From Marsupella aquatica (lineage: Eukaryota > Plantae > Marchantiophyta): a stretch of DNA of 64,000 nucleotides. Both the position numbers and the translations under genes were made by a program. Of the stretch, positions 12,283 to 64,000 are shown piece after piece. A model generated the notes under the pieces. It saw nothing but the letters and a program-made list of their open reading frames with translations, made no database searches and had not been told where the DNA came from. Within the stretch, counting starts at the first letter, position 1. Each line of letters begins with the position of its first letter. The stretch spans positions 1,674,001 through 1,738,000 of the forward strand of contig OZ316896.1 of assembly GCA_973895155.1 (NCBI GenBank), written 5' to 3'.

Positions 12283-12358
12283 TACGGTCCTAACGACCGT
12301 ATAACTTGACCTAATCTATGACCTGGGTTCGGTTAAGTGACACGTCACCCGTGTCACA
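12283..12358. other. Terminal cap with two perfect hairpins
   Basis: TACGGTC-CTAAC-GACCGTA (12283-12301) and GTGACACG-TCACC-CGTGTCAC (12337-12357), the second abutting the terminal CA. Confidence 0.7.
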
Positions 12359-31933: not shown

Positions 31934-32875
31934 TCAGCTCAAAATTGTGGACGCTTTCTCCAATCTTCTTTTGGCCACTCTCGCCCTTATTTCATCAAGC
32001 TCTTCCTCCTTCCGCAACCTGATATACTCTTTGTTGAGCTCCCGGTCCCGTTCGTCTACCTCGGTCGCAAACAATTGCAGAAGGAACTGGTCTTTGAGAA
32101 TCTTCGTCTTTTCGAATTTCGCTCGGGCCAGTTCACTTGCTGCTCTTGCTTGAGCCATTCTCCCAGACTCGACCTGCGCCTCCGTTTCTGGAGCCTCCTT
32201 GGCTGCTCCATTACCTTCAAGTAGAGGTGGCTTGGATATGTTATCAAAAGAGGGGGCTCCTCCGTTCCCTTCAAGAAGCGGTTGTTGGGACATATTTGCA
32301 AAAGTGGGCGGCTCCGCTTCATCTTGAATTCCTCTATCAACTTCGCGAATAGGGAACTCCTGGGTCGGTGCAGCACTGGAAGAACTCTCTGCCTCCTCCG
32401 AGCTTCTCCTCCGCTTCCCCGGTTTCTTGCTCGGTTCTCCTACCTTGACCAGTTGTGCTTCTCCTAAGGTGGCCCACTTGGGATGCTCTTTCAGAATCTC
32501 CCAGCAGTGAAGAAACTTGAACTCCTCCTGTTTGGCATTGAGTGGCGCCGTTTGGTAGAGCTCCAATGCCTTCGCAATCACGTCTTTCCTACTCGTACCC
32601 GACTCGTCCAGCGGCTTCACAGAGTCGTAGAAATCACCGAATTTCGACACCTCCCCTTTGATCAGACTCCATTTCGACTCCAAGCTCCTAACCGGCCGAA
32701 CTTCCGATCCAGGAGGCGTGCTCTCGTTGTAGTGGGCAGCGACTCTCTCCCAAAACGCCGCAAGCTTGTGCCCTGTTCCGCCTGCGATTCGATCGTATCC
32801 ATGCCCAATGTGCAGAAACGATCGACAGAGCTGCTCCTCGTCCTGTTTGGAATAGTTTTTCCCCCTTCCAACCAT
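31934..32875 (-). CDS. Harbinger-type Myb/SANT-like protein with NAM-associated domain (313 aa from the first ATG)
   Basis: RGKNYSKQDEEQLCRSFL...FWERV...RSLESKWSLIK trihelix pattern, FKFLHCWEILKEHPKW, NLS KKPGKRRR, C-terminal coiled coil. Confidence 0.85.
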   Translation of the reverse strand: MVGRGKNYSKQDEEQLCRSFLHIGHGYDRIAGGTGHKLAAFWERVAAHYNESTPPGSEVRPVRSLESKWSLIKGEVSKFGDFYDSVKPLDESGTSRKDVIAKALELYQTAPLNAKQEEFKFLHCWEILKEHPKWATLGEAQLVKVGEPSKKPGKRRRSSEEAESSSSAAPTQEFPIREVDRGIQDEAEPPTFANMSQQPLLEGNGGAPSFDNISKPPLLEGNGAAKEAPETEAQVESGRMAQARAASELARAKFEKTKILKDQFLLQLFATEVDERDRELNKEYIRLRKEEELDEIRARVAKRRLEKASTILS

Positions 32876-33145
32876 GGCTTCTGCGCAACAAAATCGACGC
32901 TCCACGGAGGGTGATCGATGGGGGAGCGATGGTGCACCCGCAAGCGCGCACTGTATATCTCAACTCGTGTACCTTGTGCTGTGGGCTATGGCGGGCTCCT
33001 CAAACGGCCGCACTTTGCCGGCCGGAGGCCAACAATCCCGATTTTCCCGCTCCGGTAACAAGCGCGAAATTTACGTTGCTGCGCTGGATATTCCTTTTTG
33101 CATGCTTGGTGCATTCCTTCCAGGATCTATTTACAGTATGCAAGG

Positions 33146-43360: not shown

Positions 43361-45057
43361 ATCTTATGTATTGTATGATTACTAAGATGACCTCATACCT
43401 TCTTTCAAATAATGTGAATAGAGAATATATTTTGGGGGCACATTTAGTGTAGGGTAGTTAGGGCTAGTATAAATAATGGCCCTCCACTTTACTTTCGTGA
43501 AAGAGCGAAAAAAAGTCACGAGTGTCGGCTGGAGTCTTGAAAGACACCGTTGACATCCAGTCCCGAATCTTTCCGTTCGCCGCACCCGACGCACAGTGGT
43601 ACCAATCACGACTTCGGCACTGCTGACTGCTCTACTCTTACTCTTTGCTCTGCTCTGCATTCTCCATTTCTCCTTCTCCCATGAACAGTGCTCGAGCGCC
43701 TCGAGCCTCGAGGCGTCGTTGTGGACACGGATCCTCTGGAGCTTTCTGCGTTGAGCACGAGGTGATATGGTAAACACAATTTCATGGGCCGTCCAGTATG
43801 CCCTGCGCTTGCTTAATTTTGCGTTGAGACGGGATGCCAAGGGAAGTGGAAAGGAAGGAAGGGATATGAATCGTAAGGGAGCCGGAATTCCGCAGTTGGG
43901 CGTAATTGTAATGCGGGATATGGTGGATGTAGCCGATGTGCTCCTCCTCGGGGCTGTGCAGCGGAGCGCCATGGATTCGCGGTTGTTGGTCAAAGACGGA
44001 ATGCGTATCTGAAGGATCGGCTGGACCGATAGCTTTAAGAGAAGCGAATTGACAGTTTGACCGGATGATGATGAGAGGTCAGTATTGCCTGCTTATAACT
44101 TGACCTGCTTATAATCGCGGTGATCAGGAATTCGCTCGTGTCTGTGGGATGAATGGAGCGATGATGCCTTGTAGTTTGGGCAGGACTCTGGGTACGAGGC
44201 GGGAGCTTCAAACTTTCGAACAGTGCAGAGCTATTCGAGGGGTAACAACTCGCAATATGGGCTTGAGCCAATTTTCTCTTAGAATCAACAAGGTCCATCT
44301 TCAGAACAGAAATCTCCCAGACTTGTTCTCTCAACTGTTCATGCCCAGATTTCCAACTCCAACGCGTAGGAGGCCCGCAGAGCACCCTTTCCGAGAGCCT
44401 TCTCGAAACCTGGAGCAATCAACACGGATGAAAATGGAATTGGATTCGCACTGGGTAACGTTTGAATGGTAACAAATGAAAGTCCTATGCGATACATAGT
44501 TGAAGCAACCTTCGAGGTGTCCTGCGTAGCTTCGCTTGCGGGGCGGCACAGGGGAATGTTGTGTTTTTTTAACTGGCACGGGAGTCTTAACCAGAATCTT
44601 CCCTTGTACATGTAATAAAGAATTTGATGCTGCCTTCAAGAGCTGTGACGGAGAGACGGTGAGAGTTTAACCCGGGGCATTCGGTAGGTAATGTCAGACT
44701 TCGGAACAAGAGATAATTTGCTCACGAATTCACTGGTGGGCATGATGTTACAGGTTCCGGTGCACTTACCGTCCTCAATGGGTTTGATGGGCTAGAATTG
44801 TCCGCTTAGTTTCTACTGAATCATCCGCTGTTCGATCGATCTTCACTTGATAACAGAAGCACATATAATTTGTTCTCGATGAGCCCGTGACATGGAAGAA
44901 TTGTTGATCATTGAATATCGTTTTGGTCAAGTTGAGGCCTTACTTGACTGCCCAGTGTCTGTGAAGGTCCTGGCCCACTCTAATGACCTTTTCGTTGTCT
45001 GGATTAATCTCAGATTTTAGTGGGATGACTTGGTGAGAGAGAATCACGCTGTAATCG

Positions 45058-47313
45058 ATGAGGTCGACCCATGTCCACCCCAACAGCGTTCCGGATTTTC
45101 TATTACTTGCGGCCACGATCGCCTTCTTGATCCCGTTCGTCGTTGCGAATGGAGTTGTGTATCGCAACAGGAAGCGCAAGTACTTCCAGGCGACTGGGTG
45201 GGAGCACATTCTAGGGACTTCAGTGGCTGGCATCATCTGCATTGGATCGGCATTCATAGAGAATCAACATTTCAGACGAGACCAATTCAAATTCTTCAGC
45301 TTTTGTGCGCTCTGGACCTTCTGGTTTCAGCTCACTCTGGGAATTTGCCTATGGCTCTGTTTTATGGCTCTCCGACTTCATCACTTGTTTATCTTCTGTA
45401 CCACCGGGAAGCCCCCGAGTAGCCTGCGAGTATGGGCCCTTTACCTTCCGGCGATGATGGCCCCAGCCATCATCTTTGGGATTATCGCGTCCGTCTTGCG
45501 GATCAGTCGTCATCCGTGGTACGTATGCAATTCTAGCGCCCATGTTTGCACCCCCTCAACTTTGTACCGAATGATTCTCTCCTGGCACTTCTGAAGTGGG
45601 TGCGTGGAATTCAGCTTCCATGTGTCTGGCTGAACATCAATTCGAAATACGGCAGGTTTTTCGATCTAGGTCGAGATGTGGGGGAATGTCCCTTACAGTA
45701 ATCTGAATTCCAACCCATATTCATTCTTAGGTTCAAAGCCTCCCTCATGCCTAGCGCAGGGCTCGTTCGTAAAAGAAACACGTCCAAATTTCATTTGTAG
45801 TAGCTGAAGTTCGGGATATATTTGTGTTTTTTCAGGCGCAATAGAACAATCCCGAGCTTCTGCCACTCAAATGAGTTTCAAATTAGCCACGCGGAAGCAG
45901 AGATGGCATTTGATTCTTTAATTTTGGCCCGGACGTCTTTGTTTTCCATCGTGCTTTCACTGGTCAATAATGCCCCTTCATTTAAATTGTTTTTCCCTCG
46001 TCGTTTATGAACCCTAAAGTACCGAGACCTCCCTCACGAGATTGCAAGTTTTTCATGTGAAGCTTCTAGGGACACCTCATGTGATTGTTCAATTTATCTA
46101 CATTAAACCTTAACGCTGCAAGAAGAATTGGCAACTGAAAAGTCCATGTCTGCCTAGAAAGATTCTCGTTCTTGTTATATGGAGAACAACGGTACGGTGT
46201 GGTGCATGTGATGATATTTCTAATTTGTTTTTCAAAAAGGGGGGGGGGGGGGGGGGCGGGGGGCGCGATGTTTCTATACGTTCAGCGTGTGCCCCATCAA
46301 TGGTGCATGTGATGATAAGTCACTTGCTTTTTCTAATAATTCTATTCGTCTGCTCCTAAGGCTAAATTTCTTGTTCATGTGTCTCAGTGGTTTTGAAGGC
46401 AGGTGTGTCATAGAGAACAGAAGCTTGAAGCTTACCACGTTTTTCCTTCTTCCTCCACTTTATTTTTCTATCATTGTCGTTCTTCTATATCGACTTCGGA
46501 GGCAGAAGGACTACCTGCTTCGAACACACTGTCAACACACAAAGGATTACGCGATGATGGCATTCGTCGTCTACCTGTTCACAGGGAATACGTACTGGTC
46601 AGAAAGAGAGAACAAGGTGGAGGCCCGATGTTTCTTAACGTTCAGCGTGTGCAGTGTAGTTTTATTTTACTTTTGGGTTTACACTGGATGGCCGGCGTAT
46701 CTCTGCTTGTTCAAACGAGCAGATGAGATGGACAAGTATGAGGAGAGTCTCAGAAGGCATGGAGCTACTTGCCTGCAAAGATATCCCGATTTGCGTGGAG
46801 TGGATGCCTCTGGAAATGTCATTCCTCGGACATTCTCATTGCAGGGAGAAGACGCTATTTTCCACGCAATTGCTGCCGAGCAGGTTAAAAAGGATGCATT
46901 GAAGGTACAAGTCACTGTGTGTTAATTTTTAAATTGTGTTTCTTCGTTTGATACACACTTGCTCAGAAGGAGTTTTAGAAGTAAATTCTTAGGAGGCTCA
47001 TGCTTCTAGTCTCACGTGTTCCTGGCGATGCTTGGTACGAGATATTATTCTCGACATAAGCAGTTTTTGTTCATCAAGCTAAACCTTCCTTTCCAAAGTG
47101 TTTCCTAGAATTGCCCTCTGAGCGATATATCTATGTTGAGTACAGACGAAGAAGGACCAATTGCAGCGTCGTCTGACGCAAATGAGAGCTCAGATTGAGG
47201 AGCTCAAGCATCAGAGAACTGTTGCAATTCCGCCTCGTGTCTCTCAAAGTTTGCCTCCAATAAGGAGCTGTCAGACGGTATACCTCCCACCGCCCCAGAC
47301 CGCAGAGATTTGA
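45058..47313 (+). CDS. Seven-transmembrane protein resembling the RGS1 membrane domain, with a coiled-coil tail and no RGS box (381 aa; exons 45058-45518, 46388-46904, 47146-47313)
   Basis: GT-AG introns with matching phases give a 1146-nt frame. About 7 hydrophobic segments. CALWTFWFQLTLG, KPP...YLP...P and ARCFL...FYF...P resemble plant RGS1 (CYLWAVWIEGPLG, RLPP...FLP...P, recalled from memory). Confidence 0.75.
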
Positions 47314-50300
47314 ATTTTCTTTCTTCATTTTCAGACGAGATATTTCCACGAGATGAATGATTTATCTCAATCCTGTAAATGGACCTGAGAGTATTTAATT
47401 TATGTTATGATTAGAAATTGTAAAAATCAAAATCCAGCGTGTCTAATTTGCTTTGGATTCTCATCTTGGCAGGCTTTACCTGATTCAGGGTCGATTACTC
47501 GCCATCTTAGCCTGCAGCTTTAGGGCAACCATTTCAAGCAGTTTGCTTGAGCAACGTAACTAAGGTGGCCTGATTTTGGTGTACCTCTGTATGTACATCA
47601 TGAGACGGATAATGTGAAGAAGAATGAGGCTGTACAGGAGGGCTGATATATGATACAAACGTCTTTGACATCGAGTCAAGGCTACCTTTGGAGAGTGTGT
47701 TACTAATGTACTTCCAGACTTGTACCTTAGCCTCGTTCAATCGGTACTAGTCCTTGCCAGTCTCTTGACTGATGGGAATCTTGGACTCTTGATTGAGGTA
47801 TCTTGAGTCAGATAGCAGGTTTAGGGCAGATCGGCTGACTTTGCAGTGGGTTTACCTTGGCCGAGGTGCTTGGATTGTGAGCAAATTGTAGGATTGAGTA
47901 GAATAGTGAACTGAGAAGATACGATGTACAAGCTATGCTATTCGAAGGCGCTTAGTTTGACAAGCCACAATGCTCCACGCCCCATTTTCCAGTCACTTGT
48001 GGGACGGCGTATGCTGACAAGTTCTGTACGAGAAGAAGTGGATCAGTTCAATTTGAAGGACAAAGACACGATCTCAAGTACTGCAGCACAGAAGAGAATT
48101 ACCGAGAGTAGACAAGAAAAGGTACACAGATCTTATAATTACTTTTGAAGGACTGAATGTCTGCGAGTCGGTTGATTTGGAAGGTTTGTTAAAATCAACG
48201 TCATGTAGTAGACTCTCAGAGTGGTTTGTTTTCCTTGATTGCGTCGTGTAGTTTCACTAGATTTGTATGCAGCAACCCATCGTTTTGAAACTTATGAAAG
48301 AGACTACATTGTTTGCAGCTTGAAGAAATCAACTTCAAGCCCCTGGCGCACGTGGATCTTCATTTCATCGTCAGCCTCGATTTTATGTACAAATATTTTG
48401 TCACAATTCCTCCTGGTTTTGAGCATTGATGACCGAGTGAATAAAACTGTACATATGATTTTCCATCTCAGCAGATTGCTTTCAAACAAGGTCAGTGAGA
48501 TGATTTCTCTTAATGCAACAGAATGTAGCTTGCACAGCCTCATTGTCATCGAGTACTCCTTAATAGCATCTCTTAACATGTCCTCTCAGAATCTTGTCAG
48601 GTGATCGTTATCTTGAATTTTGATCGACATATGCATTTCACCATTGTCATGCAGCACAGTTTTTCCATCTCTTAGTAACCTTCTGTGATGTCTATTATCT
48701 CCCTGTCCTATATTCATGCTCCTTGATCTGGTTTTAAATCCCTGACGATATTGGTGTCAGATGATGTTGGGGGCTTTGTTGATGGGATAGGTTTGAATTG
48801 AGTCTGGTGTGATCACGACCGAAAGCTCGTTTGATGGCAATCTTGGGCTTGTGGGTTGTTGGATAGGCCTTCTCTAGGCCTAAAGCCTTCTACAAAGTAC
48901 AAAAAATGGTCGGATGATCTAATGAGAGCTTTCTCCTGTTGGATAATTGCATGGGAGATGGTCTATCAATTTACCATGTCTCTTCTTACAGAACAGTTCA
49001 CACACATTTGATTCCTCCATCTTAATCTGTGGACCTCTACTGCACTTGCTTGGTAATTACTCAAATCCATGTTTCCTGCCGAACCTAGAAAGATTTTCTC
49101 CCCTATGGAAGGATTGGAGACTTTCAATGTTTCAACAGAATACAAACCCACGCCAAGATTGTGAAAGGCATATGGAACTCGTCATGGTTTACTATGCGAC
49201 CCTTGGATGCTCAGAAGTGAGAGCTTTACTCCGACTTATGTCGCATCAAGAACACAATATAATGCTCCTGATCCGAGCGTAGCCTGAATCTTGCAACCCT
49301 TCAAAGGAAAGTTGGATGATATGCTGGTGGGGATATATGTACACCTACCCCTCTTGCATGTTCGAAGTAAGAAATCACGATAGAACCTTGACATGCTTGG
49401 CGAGAGAGAGATTTCTACTTCATCATTCCCACCCATGCCTCATCGACAACGCGCATAGATTCTAATCTTTCTTGAAATGCCTGATACATGTGCTGCATGA
49501 CCCATCGAAAAGCTCAACTACCGAGTAAAGACAGAAAAATCTGCAATCGGTTCACTGCAAATCAGTCGCGAGTCACAATGATTAGCCACCGTTCAACATG
49601 AGCGTGCGTCTGACCTGCGGCGACGTCACTCCACTACTAAATCATTCGTGACGCAGTGACCTTAATTTCCACCGATTCCGTCCGTTTCCCAGCGCTTGGT
49701 TTTCGGCTCCCAAGTAACGAGGTTTTTGTGTTCAATTAGATTAGTCAGGCTCTCGCAACCTTCACAATTACAGTACTGTATTCAACGTTGAGTGACTAAT
49801 AAGGTAGACTTCTCGCGAGGTTGGAGCATTTCCATAGTGACATCAGCGGTTACTTAGTCGAGCACTTCGGTCAATCAACTACCTTACTTTGCTGAAACTG
49901 AGTACTTTTCAGTTCGGTATTAATTATTCTGTTGTCCAAACTAAAACTAAAGGAATCATGTTTTATAGATTCTTTCAATTCACACATTCACCTGAGAAAT
50001 CTGTCGGGCAGTGACGGGATACAGAGTACCATTTTCCGACAAATTCTGACTTAGAGCCCCAAATTTACTTCCTGCTTTCATGCAGCACTCAGAATACTAT
50101 ACAATCAACACGAAGAAATTCATTAGCGTTCTCACGAGTCTGTCGTAGAAAGCCTGGACTAGATCGGCAGCTCGATTAAACCCCGAAGTTTCAAGAAGCA
50201 TGCCCCTGGAGCTTCTCCCTCCCGTCCATGTAGACACCCAATCCCTTCCCATATATTTTGTAGCTTCATGGGCGGGCAGCGAGGGGACGTTTGACCTGCG

Positions 50301-50566
50301 CTACTCTCTTGTGAGAAGTTGCACCCACCTCCTGCCTTCGGGCAGGAAAGAAAAAGTGGAAAACGGACGTGGACAGTGGTGATGTCACCGTCGATGTCCA
50401 TTCCCGCGAGTTATTAGAGAGAGACTGCAATGCAGTATGGTAGGCGACCCAACCTCACCTTCTCATAATTCGACGTGAATTCGGCAATTCCGGTACTCAC
50501 GTCGGTGGCCTTCGGGCGAGCCTAATTCCTTTGCTTTCAGCTAATTCAGGCCGAGTTTACTCTTCT

Positions 50567-50808
50567 GGATCGCCACGATTCAAGTTCTATTTGACGTCGG
50601 TGATGTTGCGACGAGCAGCGCTATCCGCTTTGGGGACAGCCAACCAGAGGTCTAGAAATGTAGATGATTGAGGTAAGTTTAGATAATTATGTAATACGAA
50701 CACTGTTCAGGATCGCCATGAGTCGATTTCGATTTGATGTCGGTGATGTTGCGACGAAAATCGTCTCGACCTTATGGACAGCGAAGCAGAGATTTAGAAA
50801 TGTAAATC
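50567..50808. repeat. Diverged tandem duplication (~143-bp period)
   Basis: GGATCGCCA...ATTTGA.GTCGGTGATGTTGCGACGA...TAGAAATGTA occurs twice. Confidence 0.75.
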
Positions 50809-52450
50809 GCTGATGCAAATTTTGAAAGGTCATAATTGATTAAAGCAAACTTGATTGCTTCCTCGACCACCGAGGACTCAAACCAGCGATGGAATTGGTA
50901 AGTTCAATCAGCAGATATTCGAGAAAGACACCTCGGTTGGCGGGAGCATTCGATTTATGGAGGGCACCAAACATTATTCAGCCTCAACGTCCGCCCCCTT
51001 AATTACATGCTGATGCCAATTACACGATAGACCAATAGTGAGCCGAATTCAGTAGAGAGAGACCGAGAATTAGATCGCAAGACTGACAGGCGGCTCGATC
51101 GATTTGATGTCTAAGGGTCAGAAATAAAAATTCCTCGGGTTGTGAAATTGGACCTCTCTATACCTGAATTAAGGTTCCGAGTCTGCATGTGACATTACAA
51201 ATTTACCAACTCAAGGCATGATCGGTGACAACGTGCTCCATTCGTGTCCGGCCCATTTCTCTTTGCCGAGCGTGCAGACGCATCGACGAAAGAAGTCGAG
51301 TGTTCGGTAGATTTCTTGCGTGCGCTTAGCTTCGCGAACTGGATAGTACGTACTTCACATATATCGATCTCGAGGAACCTGATGATTATTGAAGTCACAA
51401 AGAGTGAGATGGACTAAGCTGGCGGTATCACTTATTGGGAGCGGAGATTGAGATCTAATCGGCGATTCGGGAAAGGTTTCGAGCTGGGTTCAGGGGTTGG
51501 CAAACTAGATTCAGCTTTCTGGTTCCATTTTAAGGTATACCACAATTCAAGATAGTCCGGTAGAATCTATTGAAGCTTCTCCGCGAAGCTGAACGCTTAC
51601 AGGCATCTATCCTTTGAAGTCGGGCATCAATCCTTGGAATCCTGCAATCAGGGGTATTATCCTCGCTTCTACTCCATAAATGACCTCGTATGCTGACTGT
51701 TTCGTCCTAGGGCTTGATCAAAACTAGGAAGAACTTGGTCATACCAAAAAAGTTGTCAGTGATTGATATTAAAAGTTACTGTGAAACGATTTGGAGTTTA
51801 CATCGACAATCCATTGACAAGCAACAAATCAATTCATTGTGTCAATCGTTTCTGGTATCTCAACACTAGTCTTCGTTTCTGGTATCTCAACAGACGCGTC
51901 TGAGGTTGAGAATGCATGAGCTCAAGACCTTGGAGGACTTTGCTTCTCGTGGACTCGACTCTAGCACGAGTCGAGCAGTACTGGCTACAGGATTCAAACT
52001 TTGCAAGAATGTATCGCTTGGCCAGTAATTGTCATCCTGCAGATGGTATTTTTCTAACCAAGACTACACCACCAGGCCATGAATAGGAAATTGTCAAGCT
52101 AGTGATTGGGATTGATGCATGTCCAGATAATGTAATTGTCAGCTTTTGACTAGAGTTGGTAGCGAAAACAGTTCAGTATGTATGACTGGTCGCATACCGA
52201 AATGCAAAATAAAGTGGCGTGATTAACGAATCGATTCAACATGACATCAGGCATCCCTCAACAAACGTAGCTCTATGTTTTAACTGCACACGACATGCTT
52301 TATTCAGACTATTTGGATGGTTACAATGCTGCTAAAGTTCACATATCTTTTGTTTCAACCTGAATGATATCGACCAATTTTTTATTCACCACGAGCTGTC
52401 AGTGACGTAATTTAAGTAGTTTTCAACGCAGGGATCGATCTCGAAATATT

Positions 52451-55411
52451 ATGACAGACCTGCAGGAGAATGTTCTCGAGCTCGGCCAGAACGGACACTG
52501 CCACATAGATGGTTCGCCTACGAATCGTGGAGAAAATTCGGCCATTGCTGACAGTGCAGATGTGGATGACGATGGTCGTCGTCGAAGACAAGGAACTGTC
52601 TGGACTGCCGCATCTCATATAATTACAGCCACTGTGGGTTCGGGGGTGCTGGCTCTGGCGTGGAGCGTGGCCCAACTTGGATGGGTCGCAGGTATACTGA
52701 TGCTACTTGGGTTTGCCTTCGTGACATACTTCACAGCAATGCTCTTGGCGGACACTTACCGATACACAGATCCCATCACTGGCACGTCTAGGAGGAATTT
52801 TAACTACATGCAAGCCATCCGCACTAATTTGGGTAAGCAGCATAGCCTCGAGACGCGTGACCCTCATTGTCTGTTACTCGTCCGGGAGAAATAGACAATT
52901 GCTCCAAGCTGTTATACTCTTGGACTGATGGAATGCAGCAGTTCGAGGACGCAGGAAGAGTTTTTGAAAAAAATGAAAAACGCAAACCTTTCAAATCAAG
53001 AGTAGGGTCTAGTAATAAAAGAAAGAAAATGTTCATATCGAGTTTGATTAAATTTAAGTGACTCAGCAAGCGATGAACTTGTTGGATGAAAAACTTTGCT
53101 GTCGTCGAAAAATTAGCTCAAACAAATACCAACCTAGTTTGTTTGGTAGAAATCCTCACAACGCTTAAGAATCCTAACTAAAATGATAATAGTAAATGGC
53201 CCGTTCCATTTGATTTTTTGGTCTCGAAAGCAATTATATAATTTATCTGTAAATGGCCCGTTCTTGTCATGTGAAGGAAGTACTGTAGTTGTGCCAGGTT
53301 CTAAGAGCCTGGGCTGAATGTTGCAGGTAGGAGACAAGTTTTCATGTGCGGACTAGTGCAGTACAGCAATCTTGTGGGAACGACCATTGGTTACACCGTC
53401 ACGTCAGCAATAAGCATGGTGTACGAGATTCCTGAAACCTGTCATACCAGGAGTTGTATCTTTCCTCGCCTTGTTTCATTGATGACAGTCCTTCACATCA
53501 AATTCGGAGAAATTTGTGTCCTCTGACTAACTTCTGCTTGACCTTATTTTGATCCCACAGCAATTCTGACTTGTACACAGTGCAGTGCAGCGGTCAAACT
53601 GCTTTCACAGCCGAGATCATAGGGCCCGATGTTATGCAAGCAACAACCCTTATATGGTAGCCTTTGGAGTTTGCCAACTGATGTTCTCCCAGATTCCAAA
53701 TTTCGAAAACATATGGTGGCTCTCTACAGTGGCCGCAGTCATGGCGTTTCTTTACTCCTCTATTGCATTCGGTCTTGGCATCAGCAAGACCATCGGTTAG
53801 GTTTTCGACTCAGTCTCGTTGTTTTCTGAATCCTGCAATGCGAATGAGTGAAGTACGTTGGCACTAGGACGTCCACGAAGGATACTGTACGAAAGAGTTC
53901 TTTATCACCTCGTAGGAGAAGAAAATCGAATCCATTGTGTGCCCTGAAGATTGGAATAGTTTATGTGCTCTTTACAGTTACTCCACTGAGTCTTCAACGT
54001 ATAGTCTGAAGAAAAGATGAAACAGATTCAAGCAGATTACAGACTATAACTAGGGTCATTCATTTGATATTTTGCAGCCACACTTCACTTGACAAAAATG
54101 ATGATCAATTCCTAATCCGATTCGGGGCTCTCGTGCAGAGGGCGGGCACTCACACGGAACTCTGGAAGGTGTTCATATTGGTGCCGGAAACGGATCCATC
54201 AGTTCTGCCTTAAAGACATGGAAGGTTTTGCAGGCTCTTGGCACGATTTGCTTCGCATATTCGTTCTCCACAGTTCTCCTAGAAATCCAGGTTTGCAGCT
54301 TTTTAACACTCCCAATCCAGCTTTTCCTCCGGCTGAGTATCCAATTTCTTTCATTAAATACCGAGAAACCCATTGCATGGCCTGGAAACATTCTTTTACT
54401 TATGCTTTGAACATTTATCGAGGATTTGAAATTGTGAATCAACTTTTGCGCTGAGTCGTCAATTTAAAGACCCTCTATTTTGAGACTGATATGTGGTATT
54501 TCAGTTTTGTTTGGTTTGCACCCGTTAGTCTGATCGTTTCTACAACATTGCAAAACTAAGGGAGAAACCCGTATCACTGATTACTAGTTTTCATTGATTC
54601 TCTGGTTGATCAGGACACTCTTAGAGGTCCCCCGAAATATCAGGCAGAAAGCAAGACAATGAAGAAGGCAACATTATTAAGCATCACGGTCACGACGCTC
54701 TGTTACACATCCGTGGCTTCAGCAGGCTATCTCGCCTTCGGCAATGATGCTCCCGGAAATATTCTCACAGAGTTTGGATTCTACAACCCCTTCTGGCTGG
54801 TGGATGTTGCTAATATTGCCGTTGTCGTACATCTCGTGGGGGCTTATCAGGTACATGCCATTACTCTCATTTATTTAGACATGAGGATGAGTATTTGAAT
54901 TTGCAGATTTGTGTCTAAGTTCATTTTGGAAACGGGCACTCTGGCCGAATCAAAAGAGTTCCCTTGACATGTACAGATTTTCGCACAACCAGTGTTTGTT
55001 TTGGTTGAGACTGAAGCTAGAGCAAAATGGCCGAACAGCAAATTCATTCACAACGATATCAACTTGAATGTCCGATGCTTTGGATCACTGCCCATCAACT
55101 GGTTCCGGATTTTTTGGAGATCTGGTTTCGTAATCTTCACCACTGTCGCTGCCATACTTTTTCCCTTCTTCACTGACATCACTGGTGTGCTTGGAGCCTT
55201 GAGCTTCTGGCCCTTGACCGTTTACTTTCCCGTGGAGATGTATATCAAGGCGAGAGGAATCGAAGCTTGGAGCAAAAATTGGATAGGATTGCAAATTCTA
55301 AGCGTCACTTGTCTTCTGGTCTCCCTCGGTGCCGGGATTGGATCTTTCGAAGGCATCATAGAGGATCTGAAGGATTACACGCCATTCCATAATAAGCTCC
55401 CAAAACATTAG
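52451..55411 (+). CDS. AAP: Amino acid permease (AAAP family), 504 aa; exons 52451-52832, 53327-53420, 53581-53795, 54139-54290, 54614-54850, 54977-55411
   Basis: DDDGR.RRQGTVWTAASHIITATVGSGVLALAW, RSNCFH, SQIPNF...WWLS, FAYSFS.VLLEIQDTL, GFYNPFWLVD, FWPLTVYFPVEMYI. All introns are GT-AG and the frame sums to 1515 nt. Confidence 0.96.
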
Positions 55412-56931
55412 TTAGACTTCTTTCCCAAACTTAGGACCCCTGTGTGCAATAATCGACAGTCTTCGCAAATAAATGCGACGACGCCATTCATACATCTTCG
55501 ACTTTTATCCGAGGGCTTGTATCTCCCAAAGGTTTAGGCCAAAGGTGGTCGATCAGTCAGAAGCAGTGGATCTTCACCAATGAAAAACTCACGAGAGGAT
55601 TCACGAAGACGATCAAATTTACGTGCCTTGTGGTAGAGACCAAATGGCTGGAACACCAATTCACAATGAATATCTCATGACGAGCCCATACTTCGCAAAC
55701 TAGTGCTGCAGGTTCTCTGGTACCATGTAGGACATTCTGTGGAGAGCTCTAATGGCATTATGACTTATGTCAACTTCCTTTTGTATGAAGTTCCACGATT
55801 CGCCTACCCAACGAAAATAAATGAAACCGATTATTGCTCGGAAGTTCATTCAAACTACGGGCAAAGTGTACGAACTCTCCTGCGTCAGTTACAATAGCTC
55901 TCCTTTAAAGATGATCATCCATCAATCAATCAATCAACTACTACTATAATAAGCAAGCGATCCATCCAAAATCTACTCGATCATCCTTCAATTTACAAAA
56001 TTCAAAAATGAATTTACCAGCCACTACTTTTAGATGTAGTCCAGTGTTTCTGACACCCTTGGATTGACTGAAGTGTGATACCTACCCAATGGATATACTT
56101 GCTTCTCCAACAGATATGTACAAGTTGAGTACTTTCTAGCATACAACTATTACATGTGAAATACATCAGTATGAGAGCTTTTTTGGCTTTCTACTATGGA
56201 GGAAGTGAACTTTCCTTTTTCTTTGGGATTATTTTGTTTTTTCTTCCCTGAATTTTATTCTCATGTTGGAGTGAGAGCAGAAGGAAAGAAAGGGAGGCGC
56301 AAGGGAGGAAGAGAAAGTATCAATTATCTGAGTTTCTAGTACTTCCAGAACACTAGCATTAGAGTTCCATGGATGCACAAGCCAACCACCCCAAAAATTG
56401 GAGACCCAAGATGGTCTCTGGTTGACGACCTGGGTTGTTGGGATTCCTTGGTGGTCTGCTGTACCTGCTGTGGTCCCCAGTCTCTCCCTGTCTTTGTCCC
56501 TCAAGAGGAGAGTCACAACCACATCAGTCATCACTTGCCTGTACTAAGTGTTCGTTGTTGTTGCTCCCATCAGTTGTTTGCAGTGGAATCTTCATAGTCA
56601 GCTGGGCTGATCAGTTGCAAAAGTAACTCAGCAAGGTAGCCAAGTGGGATTTTCCGCTGTACATTTTCATTTGGCCAGGTCAATAAGTGAAAAAGTGACT
56701 CCGCAAGCTCAGCAGAGTGAAATTTTCCAACTTGCAAGGCCATAAAGAGAAAATAATTGACCACCAAATAGATGCTCCCATGGACCTTAGACAGAAACGA
56801 CTACAGTAAACAGAAACCACAGAATCCAGATGGGCTAATTAAGAATATTAGCTGGGACATTGTGAGTAAATGCTGTCCATCTGAGTTGCAAAAATCTAAT
56901 CTTTTATATTAAAATTTCATACAGTCTCGTA

Positions 56932-57060
56932 TATGGTTATTCAGGCTTAAAATTTAAACCACCACAAGCCATAATTATTACTCTTCTTTAGTGTGTGATA
57001 CTTTTACTCCACAGTTTTATGGTTATTCAGGCTCAAAATTTAAACCCCCACAGGCCATAT
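56932..57060. repeat. Short tandem duplication
   Basis: TATGGTTATTCAGGCT.AAAATTTAAACC...GCCATA occurs twice. Confidence 0.75.
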
Positions 57061-58748
57061 TCTTCTCGATATTATTCACCTCTAGTGTGTGAGTCTTTTG
57101 CTCCACAATCTCAGGGAAAAATACTAAACATGTCGAACATGTGGTCCATGGCGCTTTAATTAAAAGCAGATGAGATTTTTTTGTGAATTTTACCTGGAAC
57201 ACAAGTGCAAGGTACATTGTACTTGTGATTCCGGCCCTGAGCGAGGTTACCGTGAGGCGACAAGGAAGTTGGACGGGGACTCGGAGAGACTACAGCTGGT
57301 GGTCGCCTGCTCAAGTGAGACCTCGGACTTCGATGCCTCGGACAACGACTTGTACTGGCGTAATTTATTGCCTTCTTGTAGTGACTCGTGTATCATCACC
57401 TCCATTTCATTACGTTGTACAGCAATCAAGAGAAGCTAGAAATCCACAGGGAATTTGAATTTTTGAAGGAGTATTTCGTTTAGCTTAGAGATTTCGACTA
57501 AATTGAACCTGAAATTTCACGTGCCGGAGAGAAAGGGCGGCATACGCGGGCTCCAAACAACCATAGCTGATAGCTGCTCGAGTTAGACCTCACCCGGTAC
57601 CTGCCTCGCTGATGAAGGCCGAGCCGGCCCATAAATCAGAGAAGAAGCGGCGGTGTACCGAAAAGTCAGGACTGTGAGAAACTCGTGCATCCAGTCCGAG
57701 CGGTTTGCTTAACCAGGAAGAGAGGAGCGGTCCCGTATTAATCGCTGGTTTTCGCATAGATATTATCCTGTCTAGGGAATTCTGGTGAAACAACAGAATT
57801 CAAGGAGTTCGTTTCCAAATAGATCTGATCCTATGTGTGAGTCCTCATGGCGTATTGCAGATTCATGGAATTCGAGCAGTGATTTATTTGGAGTTCGGCC
57901 GCACCGGAGGCAGTGCCGTGGTCATGCACGTGAGCGTATTTCTGTAAATGATTGGAGACAACTTGTCATTCTGAGTTTGGGGAGCTGCTGAGAGAAAAGG
58001 GGGCGGAGACGGATAGGCAGGAACATTCATTTAGTTGGATACATTCGTGCTCTAGCGCTGCATAGCAATCCAGCTGATGAACCTCGAATGCCGCTGACTT
58101 GGAGTTCCGTGAGCAATCGGAATGAGTCGTTCTAGAAAATGGTCGTCAAGTCTCTGAACGCCAATGAGTGGACGGTTGTTCGATACAGTACCCGGATCTA
58201 AGAGAGGGGTCGATCATAAGTGGCAGAGGTTGTGATCCCTGGCTGTTGGGCTCAGACATTAAGTCGATTCAAAATTTGAGACAAAGTTGGATTCCTTCGA
58301 ACTAGTTTTGTCGACAAGTTGAATCCAAATAGATCTCAGCAACTGGCCATCCTGCGAACTTTGGATTCAGATCTCTATCTTTGCCACTAACAATTAAACT
58401 GGTTGTGAAGTAACTAAGACCAGGCACCCACCGAGTAGTTCATTCTGATCGAGAGTTGTCGATGAAGCTCGTGAACTACAAACTACATCAAATGTCTGCA
58501 CACCACGTTAGATCATGGCCTGGGGGATTATTGTTCGAGGTATCAAGTCCTTCCTCAAGTGGCAGCCTCAAGAAAATAATGGTAATACTGATCATCGACG
58601 GAATTTAGAAGTTGCTGACAAAGGGAGCGTTGGCACCAGTGTCCACTCAAGCTCAGCGATTAATTGTTAGCTGGTGGTTTGCCTCGAGGATTAGAGTTCA
58701 GTTCCAGGATCCTCGAAGCAACTTGCGGAGCTATCAGCACTTGACAGG

Positions 58749-60245
58749 ATGAGCCATATTGCGGAGCACTGCTGTAACTCGTACAACTTCTGGGCATATA
58801 TAGCAGCAATTCTGTGTTTGCTACTCTTTGCCGGTTTGATGTCCGGTCTGACCTTAGGCCTAATGTCTTTGAGTTTAACTGATTTGGAGGTTATCAGACT
58901 GTCTGGGAGTCCTAAAGATCGCATAAACGCTGCAAAAATCATCCCAGTCGTGAAGAAACAGCATCTGTTGCTCGTAACTCTTCTTGTGGGCAACGCTATG
59001 GCCATGGAGGCTCTCCCGTTGTTCTTGGACTCTTTGGTGTCGACTTGGATGGCAATCCTTATTTCCGTTACGCTACTCCTGACGTTTGGAGAGATTCTTC
59101 CGCAAGCGATTTGCTCGCAGTACGGGCTGGCGGTAGGCGCAACGATGGCGCCTTTCGTGAAGGTACTATTAGTTGTTATGTTCCCGATTGGCTGGCCGGT
59201 GAGCAAGGTCCTTGACAAGATTCTCGGCACAAAGCACAACAACCTGTTTTGCCGCGCAGAGCTGATCACCCTCGTGAATATGCACAGCAATGAGGCCGGC
59301 AAGGGGGGCGAATTGTCGAGTAGAGAAACTAATCTCATTGCGAGGACCCTGGAGCTTGCAGGCAAGACTGCTGCAGATGCTATGACGCCCCTCAAGTCCG
59401 TCGTTTCCGTCGATGTGCAATCCAGGATTGATGAAGATGTGAGGAAAAGAATCTTCAACAGCGGGCACAGCAGAATTCCGGTCTACTCTGGAAAACAGAA
59501 CAACATCAGCGGCCTCATTCTTGTCAAGAACTTGTTTAATTTCGCCACCAGCCAGTCTGAGTTAGCCAACCTTTCGATCATCGACTTGCCGATTAAGGAA
59601 ACTCAGCGGTTTCCCGTAGGCATGCCTCTTCACAGTGTACTACAGGAATTCTGCCATCACCGAACCCACATGGCTGTAGTCGTGGGCCCGGTCACGGTGC
59701 GTTCTATGGGAGGCCACGCTGAGGATGACCCAGAACAAGAGGGCAAAGCTGGGGCTGAGCAAGAGGATAAAGAGGAAATTGTAGGCATTATTACTCGAGA
59801 GGATGTTCTCGAAGAGCTACTGAAAGAGAGTATGGAACTCGAGAATTCCGACCGTAAAGTTGGAATCGTGGATGATCAGGACTTTGCTGTCAACAGCAAG
59901 ACTTCACTCTCTGAGACTTCACCAAAAGAAGGACCTCATTTTGCGACTGAATTTCGATCCATGGACGTTGCTGAGCTGCCGTCTGTCACCTCTATGCTGT
60001 CAAATGCATCGGCAACACCCGTGCCGTCCAATACTTCACCGCCACCAGGACAGATTAGCCAGCCAGAGTCTGAACGGCAGCCAAACTCGAGAAGCAATGG
60101 CGTCAAGTCGCCTCGCAATGCGCTAATAAGAACTTTGGCTCCTGTATCTGTTCTTCGTGGTCACGAATCCCCCCTTGCTAGGCAAACAGCTGGCTTTGGC
60201 AGAATAATGTCGACAAGACATGGTGCCTCATATAGTATATCATAG
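58749..60245 (+). CDS. DUF21 (CNNM) plus CBS-pair metal-transport protein, intronless, 498 aa
   Basis: FAGLMSGLTLGLMSL, HLLLVTLLVGNAMAMEALP, FGEILPQAIC, GHSRIPVY, HMAVV, VGIIT.EDVLEELL. Confidence 0.95.
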   Translation: MSHIAEHCCNSYNFWAYIAAILCLLLFAGLMSGLTLGLMSLSLTDLEVIRLSGSPKDRINAAKIIPVVKKQHLLLVTLLVGNAMAMEALPLFLDSLVSTWMAILISVTLLLTFGEILPQAICSQYGLAVGATMAPFVKVLLVVMFPIGWPVSKVLDKILGTKHNNLFCRAELITLVNMHSNEAGKGGELSSRETNLIARTLELAGKTAADAMTPLKSVVSVDVQSRIDEDVRKRIFNSGHSRIPVYSGKQNNISGLILVKNLFNFATSQSELANLSIIDLPIKETQRFPVGMPLHSVLQEFCHHRTHMAVVVGPVTVRSMGGHAEDDPEQEGKAGAEQEDKEEIVGIITREDVLEELLKESMELENSDRKVGIVDDQDFAVNSKTSLSETSPKEGPHFATEFRSMDVAELPSVTSMLSNASATPVPSNTSPPPGQISQPESERQPNSRSNGVKSPRNALIRTLAPVSVLRGHESPLARQTAGFGRIMSTRHGASYSIS

Positions 60246-61591
60246 CTCTAAGTAAGCAAACTAACTGTACTATTGTTAGAGAATACCTGAACTGATTCTG
60301 TTCATGACACACTCAGTCCTCGCTGCAATTCTCGCCTCAGGCATTTTTCTAGATTTTGGATGATGTACATACTATAATCTACTACCATATATTCAAGACA
60401 GCCAGTTCTGTATACCTGAATGCAGGAATGTCGGCGAGGATGCATAGCTATACCAAATACTTCAGCTGTGGATTTGTATTTCTATTGGGATTTTCCACTC
60501 AACGAAGGACAAATTCATTTCAGCTAGGATTGGATTTGATTTCCATTGGGAACTTAATTGTACAGTGCATGAGAGAAGAACCAGATGCACATACAATAAA
60601 TTCATAACTATCTGGAGTACGGTGTTAGGAAAACCTTCGAGAAAATCTTTATTGTACAGTATTTCAGTAAGGCATAGTCTCCATTCTGAATTGTTACCTC
60701 TTGAGAAAGAATTTGAGGAGTAAACCTTTCTAATTAAAGTAGCTACTAGTCCGGTTGCAAGTGAAATCTTCTCAAAATACTGCATCATGTGCATAAATTC
60801 TTGAAGCTAGTCGAGTTGCCAGGGAAACCTTTACGATATTACTACTGCACCGTTTGTGTACACTTTCAAAGGGTATGCTGCTGAATGAATTGAGCAAACG
60901 AAAACGTTGAGAACTAATCGGAGGGGGCGAACAACTCCACTCTATGGACTGTACTACTTGAGAATTCCATGATGAAACCAGTTAATGACTCCTAGTACTC
61001 GAAGATGGTTAGAGCCTCTAATCTGGTAGTCGTACAGGACGTGATAGAAATTATTTTCTTCCGTATCCGGACTGCATGATATCCAGCGTACTGCAATTGC
61101 CTTCACCAGTTCATACGGTGATCAACATCCATCACATCATTTTACATTCCCCCACCAGCAGCTGCCCCAACCACTTCTCGCAATAACAAATCGTTCCTTG
61201 CCACAATGAATATCCCTTGCCTGTCATTGTCCTCCTGCTTGCTTGCCTGTAGCCAAACATCAAAATGTGGTAATATACGGTGCGGGATATCATGGTATGG
61301 AGTGATGTGGCGTCATATTTTGATGTGCAGTTATGGTGCCCTCCTGCTTGTCCCCAAAGTGTACAGCTGCGCCAGTTTTCGAGCAACATGATAGCCCCAA
61401 TTATGGCTGCATAGAAGTAGTACAGTCAATCTGCACTAAATCTTCCACTGCACTTCATGACTCTGTCCTGGATACACGGCCCGACTGCGACGACCGTCTG
61501 TACCATCTTGCAGTGATCTTTGATACCAGAGCAATCGCGTTCTCCAAGACGATAAATCCCGGTGGGAACTTCGTCTTCTGTCTGCAGCGCC

Positions 61592-61705
61592 ATATGATGG
61601 AGATTGTGGACGGTTCAGTGCATGCGCCTAGTTTGTGTGGCTCCCAGTCATGATGGAGATTGTGGACTGTGCACTGCATGCGCCTAGGTTGTGTTGCTCC
61701 CAGTG
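61592..61705. repeat. ~57-bp tandem duplication
   Basis: ATGATGGAGATTGTGGAC...TGCATGCGCCTAG.TTGTGT.GCTCCCAGT occurs twice. Confidence 0.85.
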
Positions 61706-62519
61706 CTTTGTAAACTAAACACCGCCTCAGGAATGAGTTGGGAAGTATGATGCTCCCATGGACCTGAGATTGAATTAAACCATGTACTCTGGATAGTCAA
61801 TTAGTTCGAATATTCAATATGAGAAGAATGTGGTTCATATAGATTTCAAAATTCAACAGGAACATTTTGGCGAGCCTCATCAGACCTTCATTGTACAAGA
61901 AAGGGAATATGTCAGGGACCCTTCAATTAATTACAACTGCTAATAAATAATTTCAGTCCCTCCAATTATGTAAAATCTCACTCAAATTAGCTGTCAAACC
62001 TTCCTAAAATGAATAAATAGTTGTATTGCACCTTGTGATACATTTTTTATTTTTCGTTATTTGTTTGTGCGAGACAAGCAACGAAGGAAACTTTATCCTG
62101 CAGCACCTGTAAAACACTTCCATCACTAAAATTTTGCATTCCAGCGTTCTTAAAGTTGTCAATTCGTTCTTTGGTTTCGTGGTGCACAACAGACATTAAA
62201 AATAGACTGTCTTGGGCAGAAAACAAGAATATTCACCTTTCGGAAAATTGGGGTCGCGAATTCAAGAGACATCAAGGTCATCACTTCCTGATCACACGTA
62301 ATTCGTAATTGACATTAACGGCTTTTCATCCCCCACAAAGACGCTTTGCATCGATTCTCAATCCGTTCAAGGCCGTCCCAAGATCCCACTCTACTTGGAT
62401 TGAAGGTGACTGCTCGGTAGTCATCAGTCAATGGCTTACTATCGCTAACTACACGTGGTGGGTGCGCGTCCAATCTGGACACCGCTAATGACAAGGACGA
62501 CGCCGATCGAATGCGATAT

Positions 62520-62665
62520 TCTGCACATCATAGCTTTCTTCCATGTATAGAACATGATGCTGCACATCATAGCTTTCTTCAATGTATAGAACATAGCTTT
62601 CTTCCATGTATAGAACATGATGCTGCACATCATAGCTTTCTTCAATGTATAGAACATGATGCTGA
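62520..62665. repeat. Minisatellite of 39- and 24-bp units
   Basis: CATAGCTTTCTTC.ATGTATAGAA(CATGATGCTGCACAT) repeated 4 times. Confidence 0.9.
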
Positions 62666-63779
62666 TCGCGTCGCCATGGTAAATCCCTCTCTGCCAGTAT
62701 TGGTGTCAATTCGTAGCTGTATTGACAAATTATTTCGCTGGTAAAGTTACCAAAACAAAATAGCAACTTTCGCATAGTTTAATGACTGGCACTTTCTCCC
62801 CCAAGCGAACTCGGTCAAAGACATGACGATTCGTATCTTCGTTTCCCTGAAGAAGCTTCTGAGTAGCCTTCACCCATACAGCTCTTGTTCGCGTACTCAA
62901 AATTATCAGGTGGCTGGACAAACGCTCGTGATCAATTCACTCTAAATGCCGAAGGTTGGCCATCCTGCCATCTTATAATCACCACCAGGAATGCTTTTGC
63001 TAGCATGATCCATGTACTATATGTCATAGCATACCTCCGTTCCTTCATTTTCCATTCTGTGAACGGGTCAGAGGAACAGATTGAACTGAACAACAGTTCG
63101 ACGCACTTCGAGGGTTTTTCAACACCAGGATTGTTCAGGATAGACCTTTGAAGTCAACGAAAGCTGTCAGTAGTGTACCTAACGTTACACTGGCTGTTTA
63201 CCCTGTCAGTGCCTTTTGACTATTATTGTACAGTTGCCCATTGGTCTAGGACATACACAGAGCTCGCTTCGCATTGCAGCGATTCTTGTTGAGCAAGGAA
63301 ATCACGCACCAAAAGGCAAGCTCTGAGGTGAAGTTGCAGTATGGAGTACAGTATTCTTGATTACACGTGGTCCATACAGTATTCTTCGTCAATGGTGGTA
63401 GAGGGGAAACTGAAATTACCTGAGTGCAAATTGATTTCGCTCAATTATTCTCGAATTCTAATGAAAACAAATCTTATGTTAAACATGATGCTTGTGAGCA
63501 AAAGAGAGCAAAACAATTCAATGGGCTTGAAGTGAAAGCATGAAAAAACAAATTTATTAATTGGAAAGACAAAACAATGATTTCTATGTACTACTAGCCT
63601 CGACTACCCGTTCTTTGAATGTGAATAGCGAAGAGGACAATAAAAAAATTATCAAAATATGTTTTCTATTCATATTCTTTGAAGATTAATGAAATGATAA
63701 AAAAAAACCTCATCATTTTAATAGTCATATATAATATATCATTCTCTTTGATGTGCACATCAAGCTTTTTGTATGCACA

Positions 63780-64000
63780 TCTATGTTCTATGCACATATG
63801 TTGTGCTGGGCCATATTACCTATATTTTTTGAATATAAATATTTAAAAATTATCACATAAAATTGGCATGTACATACATCATAGTCATGTCATAAGTTTT
63901 TTCCATGCATATGATGAGAGTTACGTCTAGAGGTTTCACTCTAGACCCTAGCTTGTGAAAAGTAAGCTGCAGTTCGCACTTTATTAGTAAGATGAATAGT
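63780..64000 (-). repeat. Dispersed AT-rich repeat, inverted partner of 43140-43360
   Basis: Reverse complement carries the same ordered motifs. Runs to the window edge. Confidence 0.6.

What the first reader, a model, noticed from the sequence alone, without database searches (positions are those of the whole stretch)
45058..47313. RGS1-like seven-transmembrane protein with a coiled-coil tail instead of the RGS box
Seen: a clean 3-exon, 381-aa model with about 7 hydrophobic helices, splicing that creates an HPCGFEGRC loop, and a tail KKDALKTKKDQLQRRLTQMRAQIEELK. Known: plant RGS1 is 7TM plus RGS, it is reported absent from Marchantia polymorpha and Physcomitrium, and GABA-B receptors use C-terminal coiled coils to dimerise. 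Inference: motif matches to the RGS1 7TM (C.LW..W....LG, PP....LP....P, C, LY, R....F.....P) suggest a GAP-less receptor-like relative, a candidate unrecognised component of plant G-protein signalling. The homology is judged by eye.
Basis: partly seen in the sequence, partly recalled or inferred. Interest (0 to 1): 0.7.

Follow-up and report, generated by a model that had tools for sequence, protein, structure and literature searches.

The report
GABA-B-like orphan receptor of non-flowering plants
This likely liverwort gene encodes a predicted seven-helix membrane protein with a predicted coiled-coil tail and no RGS domain; it belongs to one of two old plant families distantly related to RGS1, is predicted to fold like animal class C receptors, and likely works as a paired receptor that may feed plant G-protein signalling.

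Summary
The gene is real, but it has four exons (386 aa), not three. A transcript contig from a close relative removes all three introns, and a homologous protein ends at the same stop. The Calypogeia orthologue (68% identical) is predicted to have seven membrane helices and a cytoplasmic coiled coil. Homology to the RGS1 7TM is confirmed (HHalign 98.3%, all seven helices), and there is no RGS box in the family or the window. It is not a liverwort RGS1 that lost its box. It belongs to a conserved family (A: liverworts, lycophytes, ferns, conifers) with a sister plant family (B, e.g. Mp1g05640) that has the same tail. Nesting inside RGS1 is rejected (p-AU 3e-10), and Selaginella and spruce carry it alongside RGS1. 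Its predicted fold best matches class C GPCRs (GABA-B, GPR156, GPR158; Z 19-22). Best reading: an orphan class-C-type receptor that dimerises through its coiled coil, possibly A with B, and may dock the G-protein complex without acting as a GAP. Dimerisation, ligand and G-protein coupling are untested. My searches found no paper on these genes.

The parts
45058..45518 (+). Exon 1 (coding): residues 1-153 plus 2 nt; TM1-TM4
   Evidence: covered by X1 contig
45519..46387 (+). Intron 1, 869 nt, GT..AG, phase 2
   Evidence: joint 'skips 869' in X1
46388..46904 (+). Exon 2: ECL2 cysteine, TM5-TM7, helix 8, linker, start of coiled coil (residues 154-326)
46905..47145 (+). Intron 2, 241 nt, GT..AG, phase 0
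   Evidence: joint 'skips 241' in X1
47146..47277 (+). Exon 3: rest of coiled coil and start of Ser/Thr/Pro-rich tail (residues 327-370)
47278..47472 (+).
   Evidence: X1 skips 198 with 3 letters between; 2-nt deletion at 47291 in X4/X5
47473..47523 (+). Exon 4 coding part: residues 371-386 and stop; motif conserved in liverworts
   Evidence: P0129
45091..46712 (+). Predicted 7TM domain (about residues 12-262, split by intron 1), homologous to the RGS1 7TM, class C GPCR-like fold, conserved C83/C160 pair
46848..47217 (+). Predicted cytoplasmic coiled coil (about residues 308-350, split by intron 2)
44760..45057 (+). Probable 5' UTR (covered by two contigs of the RNA-like run X1; start not determined)
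47524..48000 (+). Probable 3' UTR; the X1 contig continues collinearly past the stop to the end of the stretch laid
   Evidence: end not determined

Best explanation
The gene is a four-exon, spliced member of a conserved plant family whose protein is predicted to have a class C GPCR-type seven-helix bundle and a cytoplasmic coiled coil, has no RGS box, and likely works as an orphan receptor that would dimerise through the coiled coil and would dock the plant G-protein complex without switching it off. Shown here: gene structure, splicing in a relative, conservation, homology to the 7TM of 7TM-RGS proteins, absence of an RGS box, a sister family B with the same tail, and separation from the RGS1 clade (about 0.9 for this identity). 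Predicted: the fold and the coiled coil. Inferred by analogy only: (1) the tail pairs two subunits (about 0.65), most attractively A with B as in GABA-B1/B2 (about 0.35); (2) with an N-terminus of only about 10 residues, any signal is read inside or on top of the helix bundle, as in GPR156-type receptors; (3) the intracellular loops and helix 8 hold the heterotrimer or a kinase/adaptor complex and release or reposition it on signal (about 0.4).
For: Gene and splicing. Conservation: 16 proteins of 346-542 aa at E<=1e-3, 10 with an organism name in their cluster (Calypogeia, two Riccia, Marchantia Mp6g08470, Psilotum, Ceratopteris, two Selaginella, Cryptomeria, Picea). Fold of the Calypogeia orthologue: top VIA rows are GABA-B (Z 22.2, rmsd 4.0, 258 aligned), GPR156 (20.9, 3.6, 242) and GPR158 (19.6, 3.3, 243); best non-class-C natural receptor Z 16.6, best class A 15.7. 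Foldseek top hit GPR158, E 3.3e-4. The AtRGS1 control model has the same GPR158 chain as its best 7TM hit, plus RGS domains. Of 114 proteins scanned (112 of the 150 listed profile hits plus 2 family members), 40 match Pfam 7tm_3 and 6 match RGS at E<=1e-4. A profile of RGS1s, protist relatives and family B (no family A rows) finds GABA-B2 at E 1e-11. C83 and C160 are kept in 55 of 55 aligned rows, R106 and R234 in 13 of 13 family A rows. A and B align over 326 columns including the tail (prob 100) and group at 99/97; both occur in Marchantia, Selaginella and Diphasiastrum. By a crude heptad count the e/g positions are mainly basic in liverwort A tails and lean acidic in Marchantia B. GABA-B heterodimerises through a C-terminal coiled coil (PMC7411975 passages). 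[quoted passage not shown]
Against: No binding, localisation or activity data. Plant G-alpha self-activates and is reported not to need a GPCR (PMC3386157, PMC3718340 passages). The intracellular-loop-3 glutamate kept in 10 of 13 family A rows and in all RGS1 rows is His201 in this protein and Gln in Riccia and Marchantia, and the TM7 lysine of the class C xPKxx motif is absent, so the G-protein face may have drifted. None of the window's exons and none of the 16 family A members reaches Pfam 7tm_3, and neither the family A nor the family B profile finds a class C receptor in PDB by sequence. Charge complementarity is clear only in liverworts; vascular-plant A tails are near neutral. No named flowering-plant member was found although flowering plants keep the G-protein complex. 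A family B gene was not shown in this organism.
Confidence: 0.45

Rival explanations
1. G-protein-independent 7TM sensor or scaffold: same fold and coiled coil, but the tail recruits trafficking or kinase partners and the G-protein link was lost with the RGS box.
For: Loss of the loop-3 glutamate in 3 of 4 liverwort rows and no TM7 lysine; family A sits on a long branch (1.07) and has its own invariant residues; no named flowering-plant member although G proteins persist there; GPCR-like proteins can be wired to other modules (PMC3971589 passage).
Against: R106, R191 and R234 stay nearly invariant as in 7TM-RGS proteins; family B keeps the R...F-N-E-type loop 3 seen in RGS1.
Confidence: 0.3
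2. A true activating GPCR (exchange factor) for the fast-cycling G-alpha of liverworts, like GPR156 or GABA-B2.
For: Best structural matches are Gi-coupled class C receptors; GPR156 lacks a large extracellular region and is constitutively active (PMC11621567, start of abstract); liverwort G-alpha has similar release and hydrolysis rates (PMC3386157 passage).
Against: AtRGS1 has the same fold matches and is a GAP, not an exchange factor (PMC11580166 passages); all tested plant G-alphas self-activate; closest non-plant relatives are 7TM-RGS proteins.
Confidence: 0.1
3. GPR158-like split GAP receptor: the coiled coil recruits an RGS protein in trans, or the protein is a co-subunit of RGS1.
For: GPR158 is the top Foldseek hit and uses a cytoplasmic coiled coil to bind RGS7 (PMC8611064 passages); Selaginella and spruce have both this family and RGS1.
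Against: The family is well conserved in Marchantia, which is reported to have no RGS gene, and was not found by name in flowering plants, which have RGS1.
Confidence: 0.1
4. The liverwort RGS1 orthologue that lost its RGS box and gained a coiled coil.
For: 7TM homology to RGS1; RGS1 reported absent from liverwort and moss; A+B as sister of the whole RGS1 clade is not rejected (p-AU 0.263).
Against: A+B grouped with the two land-plant-type RGS1 rows, inside the RGS1 clade, is rejected (p-AU 3.2e-10); it coexists with RGS1 in Selaginella and Picea; the family A profile scores AtRGS1 23.5 bits and Klebsormidium RGS1 48.9, against 112-132 for three unnamed or protist 7TM-RGS proteins and 146-182 for family B; intron 1 matches none of the 9 AtRGS1 introns mapped.
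Confidence: 0.03

Closest known systems
Plant 7TM-RGS (AtRGS1, Q8H1F2; Klebsormidium KFL_000430070)
   Same: Homologous 7TM over all seven helices; shared TM3/ECL2 cysteines, TM3 glycine, loop-3 arginine and TM7 arginine; same class C-like fold matches; very short N-terminus.
   Different: No RGS box; coiled coil in its place; 12-15% identity over the 7TM; separate clade; intron 1 not shared.
Protist 7TM-RGS and RGS-less relatives (Ancoracysta P0066, Muranothrix-labelled P0069, unnamed P0065, P0070, P0076)
   Same: Best non-plant profile hits (E 2.5e-33 to 1e-22); 20-24% identity over the 7TM; three of the four RGS-bearing rows share the HFxR loop-1 motif with families A (12 of 13) and B (5 of 6).
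   Different: They carry an RGS box or a disordered tail, with weak heptad scores; the tree does not resolve which is the sister.
GABA-B receptor (class C GPCR)
   Same: Best structural match (Z 22.2); 7TM followed by a C-terminal coiled coil; two paralogous subunits exist (A and B here).
   Different: No Venus-flytrap domain; 11-14% identity; no RxR motif in the last 60 residues of the liverwort A or Marchantia B tails; heterodimer and G-protein activation not shown.
GPR156 and GPR158 (orphan class C GPCRs)
   Same: Z 19-21; GPR156 lacks a large ectodomain; GPR158 uses a cytoplasmic coiled coil as a docking site.
   Different: No direct sequence-level match; TM7 lysine absent; GPR158 has an ectodomain and needs RGS7, and Marchantia is reported to lack RGS genes.
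Database entries Mp6g08470 / MARPO_0060s0074 and Mp1g05640 / MARPO_0005s0043
   Same: Mp6g08470 is the likely orthologue (55% over the 7TM); Mp1g05640 is the family B paralogue.
   Different: Annotated as hypothetical; UniRef labels them 'G-protein coupled receptors family 2 profile 2 domain-containing', whereas the fold and profile evidence here points to family 3 / class C.

Membership tests
Plant RGS1 (7TM-RGS) | Homologous N-terminal 7TM domain | tested here: met
   HHalign prob 98.3, E 1.1e-14, 238 columns; 17.5 bits vs best 7.6 of 500 shuffles
Plant RGS1 (7TM-RGS) | C-terminal RGS box | tested here: not met
   No Pfam RGS hit in window exons or 16 family members; RGS-box profile gives at most 1 bit on family A/B and best E 3.0 over 2734 window ORFs; stop confirmed by P0129 and X1
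Plant RGS1 (7TM-RGS) | Falls within the streptophyte RGS1 clade | tested here: not met
   RGS1 100/100 and A+B 99/97 are separate; nesting rejected p-AU 3.2e-10; sister relation not rejected p-AU 0.263
Plant RGS1 (7TM-RGS) | GAP activity on G-alpha | not testable with these tools
   No RGS box, so not expected
Class C GPCR (7tm_3) | Class C 7TM fold | tested here: met
   Predicted model of the orthologue: top 8 VIA rows are class C, Z 19.0-22.2; Foldseek top GPR158; Atlas features 0.91 to 7tm_3 clusters
Class C GPCR (7tm_3) | TM3-ECL2 disulfide cysteines | tested here: met
   C83 and C160 in 55 of 55 rows; bond described for GPR158; the bond itself is inferred
Class C GPCR (7tm_3) | Pfam PF00003 above its cut-off | tested here: inconclusive
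   No hit for window exons or 16 family A members; A-type P0051 33.9 and B-type P0064 53.6 pass the 33.5 cut-off
Class C GPCR (7tm_3) | Ionic lock (TM3 basic, loop-3 acidic, TM7 xPKxx lysine) | tested here: not met
   R106 and P256 present; loop-3 Glu is His201 here (Glu in 10 of 13 A rows); TM7 Lys absent. Mapping to class C numbering is my inference from the GPR158 passage
Class C GPCR (7tm_3) | Large extracellular ligand domain | tested here: not met
   About 10 residues precede TM1, in-frame stop upstream of the ATG; GPR156 also lacks one
Class C GPCR (7tm_3) | Activates a heterotrimeric G protein | not testable with these tools
   Needs biochemistry
GABA-B-type heterodimer | C-terminal coiled coil | tested here: met
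   Helix 308-355 in the model; heptad pattern in 16 A and 6 B tails by a crude score; predicted only
GABA-B-type heterodimer | Two paralogous subunits bind each other | not tested

The most novel reading that the evidence does not exclude
Non-flowering land plants keep an unrecognised GABA-B-like heterodimeric GPCR: an A subunit (this gene, Mp6g08470) and a B subunit (Mp1g05640) zip together by their coiled coils and directly regulate the heterotrimeric G protein, supplying the missing regulator of the RGS-less liverwort G-alpha; flowering plants lost it.
Probability: 0.18. Interest if true: 0.92.

Novelty: new variant of a known kind. Interest (0 to 1): 0.66.

Why it matters
Whether plants have GPCR-type receptors, and what regulates G-alpha in lineages without RGS1, are long-standing open questions. 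Earlier candidate searches centred on flowering plants (my recollection), where this family was not found by name. Here are two conserved class-C-fold 7TM genes with matching coiled coils in Marchantia, a model with G-protein mutants and easy knockouts, so the question becomes directly testable. It also shows that the RGS1-type 7TM had at least two more lineages in land plants. If the proteins turn out to be G-protein-independent, the result is still a new receptor-like family, of lesser interest.

Tried and rejected
No whole genome is held, so RGS1, family B and G-protein subunits could not be sought in this organism. Single exons gave no significant Pfam or PDB sequence hit; family A and B profiles gave only weak coiled-coil or helical matches in PDB. 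Pairwise BLAST of the Calypogeia protein against AtRGS1 is marginal (26.6 bits); only profiles show the homology. A word-based search from Klebsormidium RGS1 returned only itself. The VIA search of the AtRGS1 control model could not be queued; Foldseek was used, so Z-scores cannot be compared between the two. No listed run is on record as RNA; X1 is a guess, though its contigs are spliced here and in the neighbouring permease gene. Other splice sites were enumerated and dropped on homology and X1 evidence. The 55-row careful tree did not finish (quick tree shown); the 32-row tree left out 23 rows (5 family A, 1 family B, 17 others, including most long branches). Earlier scan notes: nothing. 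Literature: identifier searches for Mp6g08470, Mapoly0060s0074, MARPO_0060s0074, SELMODRAFT_449405, A9NX33, KP509_04G006600, Mp1g05640, Mapoly0005s0043, MARPO_0005s0043 gave 0 papers; topic searches listed none on this family. Two relevant papers, asked for by recalled DOI (a 2022 survey of plant G-protein components and a 2014 'do plants contain GPCRs' study), are not held; no supplements were read, and these could mention the family.

Full report
1. The gene. Its end is wrong. A contig of run X1, about 92-95% identical over the exons, skips 869, 241 and a net 195 nt and runs on collinearly past the stop. Homologue P0129 ends at the same residue. A 2-nt deletion at 47291 in runs X4 and X5 is harmless only if that position is intronic. 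The organism is likely a leafy liverwort, since the nearest named protein is from Calypogeia fissa (68% over the full length); this is inference, no genome is held.

2. The family. A profile search returned 16 proteins, 10 with an organism name in their cluster: liverworts, Psilotum, Ceratopteris, Selaginella (expanded), Cryptomeria and Picea; Diphasiastrum was added later. I call this family A. No named member is from a moss, hornwort or flowering plant, but 6 of the 16 and several fragments are unnamed, so absence there is suggested, not shown. Unspliced ORFs of distant members diverge at the positions of introns 1 and 2, which suggests these introns are old.

3. Relatives. The family A profile against 1.84 billion representatives gave 299 hits at E<=1e-3, of which 150 were listed. 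The next tier is a second plant family, B (Marchantia Mp1g05640, Selaginella, Diphasiastrum, unnamed P0060 and P0064), then 7TM-RGS proteins from protist-labelled or unnamed records (Ancoracysta E 9e-32, Muranothrix-labelled 3e-27) and many RGS-less 7TM proteins. Of 114 proteins scanned, 40 match Pfam 7tm_3 and 6 match RGS at E<=1e-4. Klebsormidium RGS1 appears only at E 4e-8. I fetched AtRGS1 (L030; its C-tail equals the peptide printed in PMC11580166) and a second RGS1 (L007). Family A and RGS1 align over all seven helices (prob 98.3); shuffled and reversed controls score far lower. An RGS-box profile finds nothing in families A and B or in 2734 window ORFs.

4. Position in the tree. In a 32-row 7TM tree A (100/100), B (97/95), A+B (99/97) and RGS1 (100/100) are each supported; the deep branches are not (the 55-row quick tree agrees). 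Forcing A+B next to the two land-plant-type RGS1 rows is rejected (p-AU 3.2e-10); A+B as sister to all RGS1 is not (0.263). Intron 1 maps near AtRGS1 codon 148, phase 2, and matches none of 9 mapped AtRGS1 introns (nearest codon 142, phase 1). Selaginella and Picea have 7TM-RGS (PMC3386157, passages) and family A. So this is a parallel lineage that split from RGS1 before Klebsormidium diverged (inference from the tree), not a stand-in made when liverworts lost RGS1.

5. Structure. The spliced window protein was not folded; the Calypogeia orthologue was. It gives seven helices, a helix-8-like segment, a low-confidence linker and a 48-residue helix. Its top eight VIA matches are class C receptors, led by GABA-B (Z 22.2), GPR156 and GPR158; Foldseek and the language-model Atlas agree (for family B). 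The AtRGS1 control matches the same class C chains plus RGS domains, in line with PMC11580166 (passages), and a profile of RGS1, protist and family B rows finds GABA-B2 by sequence (E 1e-11). 'RGS1-like' and 'class C-like' are therefore one statement. The class C lock is incomplete: the two cysteines, R106 and P256 are kept, the loop-3 glutamate is His201 here, and the TM7 lysine is missing (numbering mapped by me from PMC8611064 passages).

6. How it most likely works. The ectodomain is absent and the extracellular face is conserved (HFxR in 12 of 13 A and 5 of 6 B rows, invariant C83, L85, W86, W89), so I infer that a signal is read at the helix bundle. Both plant families end in a coiled coil at the same place, both occur in the three named genomes where B was found, and in liverworts the A tail is basic and the Marchantia B tail acidic. 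By analogy with GABA-B (PMC7411975, passages) I favour a dimer, with A-B pairing as the most attractive form. With no RGS box it cannot be an RGS-type GAP by itself; I infer a docking or release role for the heterotrimer, at about 0.4, because plant G-alpha needs no exchange factor and the lock has drifted. Rivals: G-protein-independent sensor (0.3), true activating GPCR (0.1), GPR158-like trans-RGS recruiter (0.1), truncated RGS1 (0.03). Nothing on binding or activity was tested.

7. Novelty. The parts are known: 7TM-RGS-type 7TM domains are widespread in eukaryotes (PMC3971589, passages) and databases auto-label some of these proteins as GPCR-like. The combination in land plants, two RGS-less coiled-coil families, was not found in print by three identifier searches and six topic searches of an open-access library; two key papers were not held and no supplements were read. 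Also seen as passages without mention of the family in what was shown: PMC12017998, PMC3718340, PMC11700963, PMC12252195, PMC8584482; PMC11621567 only as listing and start of abstract. Verdict: new variant of a known kind, interest 0.66.

Noticed in passing
window 46200-46317 (intron 1): A 101-nt segment between 17-nt direct repeats holds a long G run and a 34-nt, 88% identical copy of exon 2 sequence (46619-46652); a contig of run X4 lacks it. Looks like a small templated insertion.
   Followed up: partly
window 45025-45036: Three-codon upstream ORF 21 nt before the start codon; the loose end of an X1 contig shows the same ATG and stop with one codon changed. Several other upstream ATGs lie in 44742-44983.
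   Followed up: partly
run X1 contig over window 45022-48000: The spliced contig is 4846 nt; about 3.1 kb beyond 48000 did not lay on 47420-64000: long divergent 3' UTR or a fused neighbouring transcript.
   Followed up: partly
window 27527-29824 (+): Intronless legume-lectin receptor-like kinase ORF (Pfam Lectin_legB and kinase).
   Followed up: no
window 52406-55416 (+): Amino-acid permease (Aa_trans), spliced in X1.
   Followed up: no
window 58695-60245 (+): Intronless CNNM/CBS-domain ORF.
   Followed up: no
window 31934-32959 (-): ORF with a NAM-associated domain, possibly transposon-derived (recalled association with Harbinger elements).
   Followed up: no
window 558-14992: Helitron fragments (PIF1 helicase 3623-4051, Helitron_like_N 13649-14050, both minus strand) around long GC-rich ORFs, of which those scanned (558-1460, 6887-7843, 8742-10457) have no Pfam match.
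   Followed up: no
proteins P0065, P0137, P0044: Distant relatives with unusual fusions: 7TM-RGS-LRR (P0065) and 7TM-CD36 (P0137); a Selaginella model with two tandem copies of the family A gene (P0044).
   Followed up: no
proteins P0071, P0079, P0081, P0083, P0089, P0095, P0096, P0098, P0115: A supported clade (98) of 443-584 aa 7TM proteins with no Pfam RGS hit but tails that resemble a degenerate RGS start by eye; origin unnamed.
   Followed up: no
L007 148-1986 (-); protein P0173: Two further streptophyte-type RGS1 proteins with long tails from unnamed records.
   Followed up: partly
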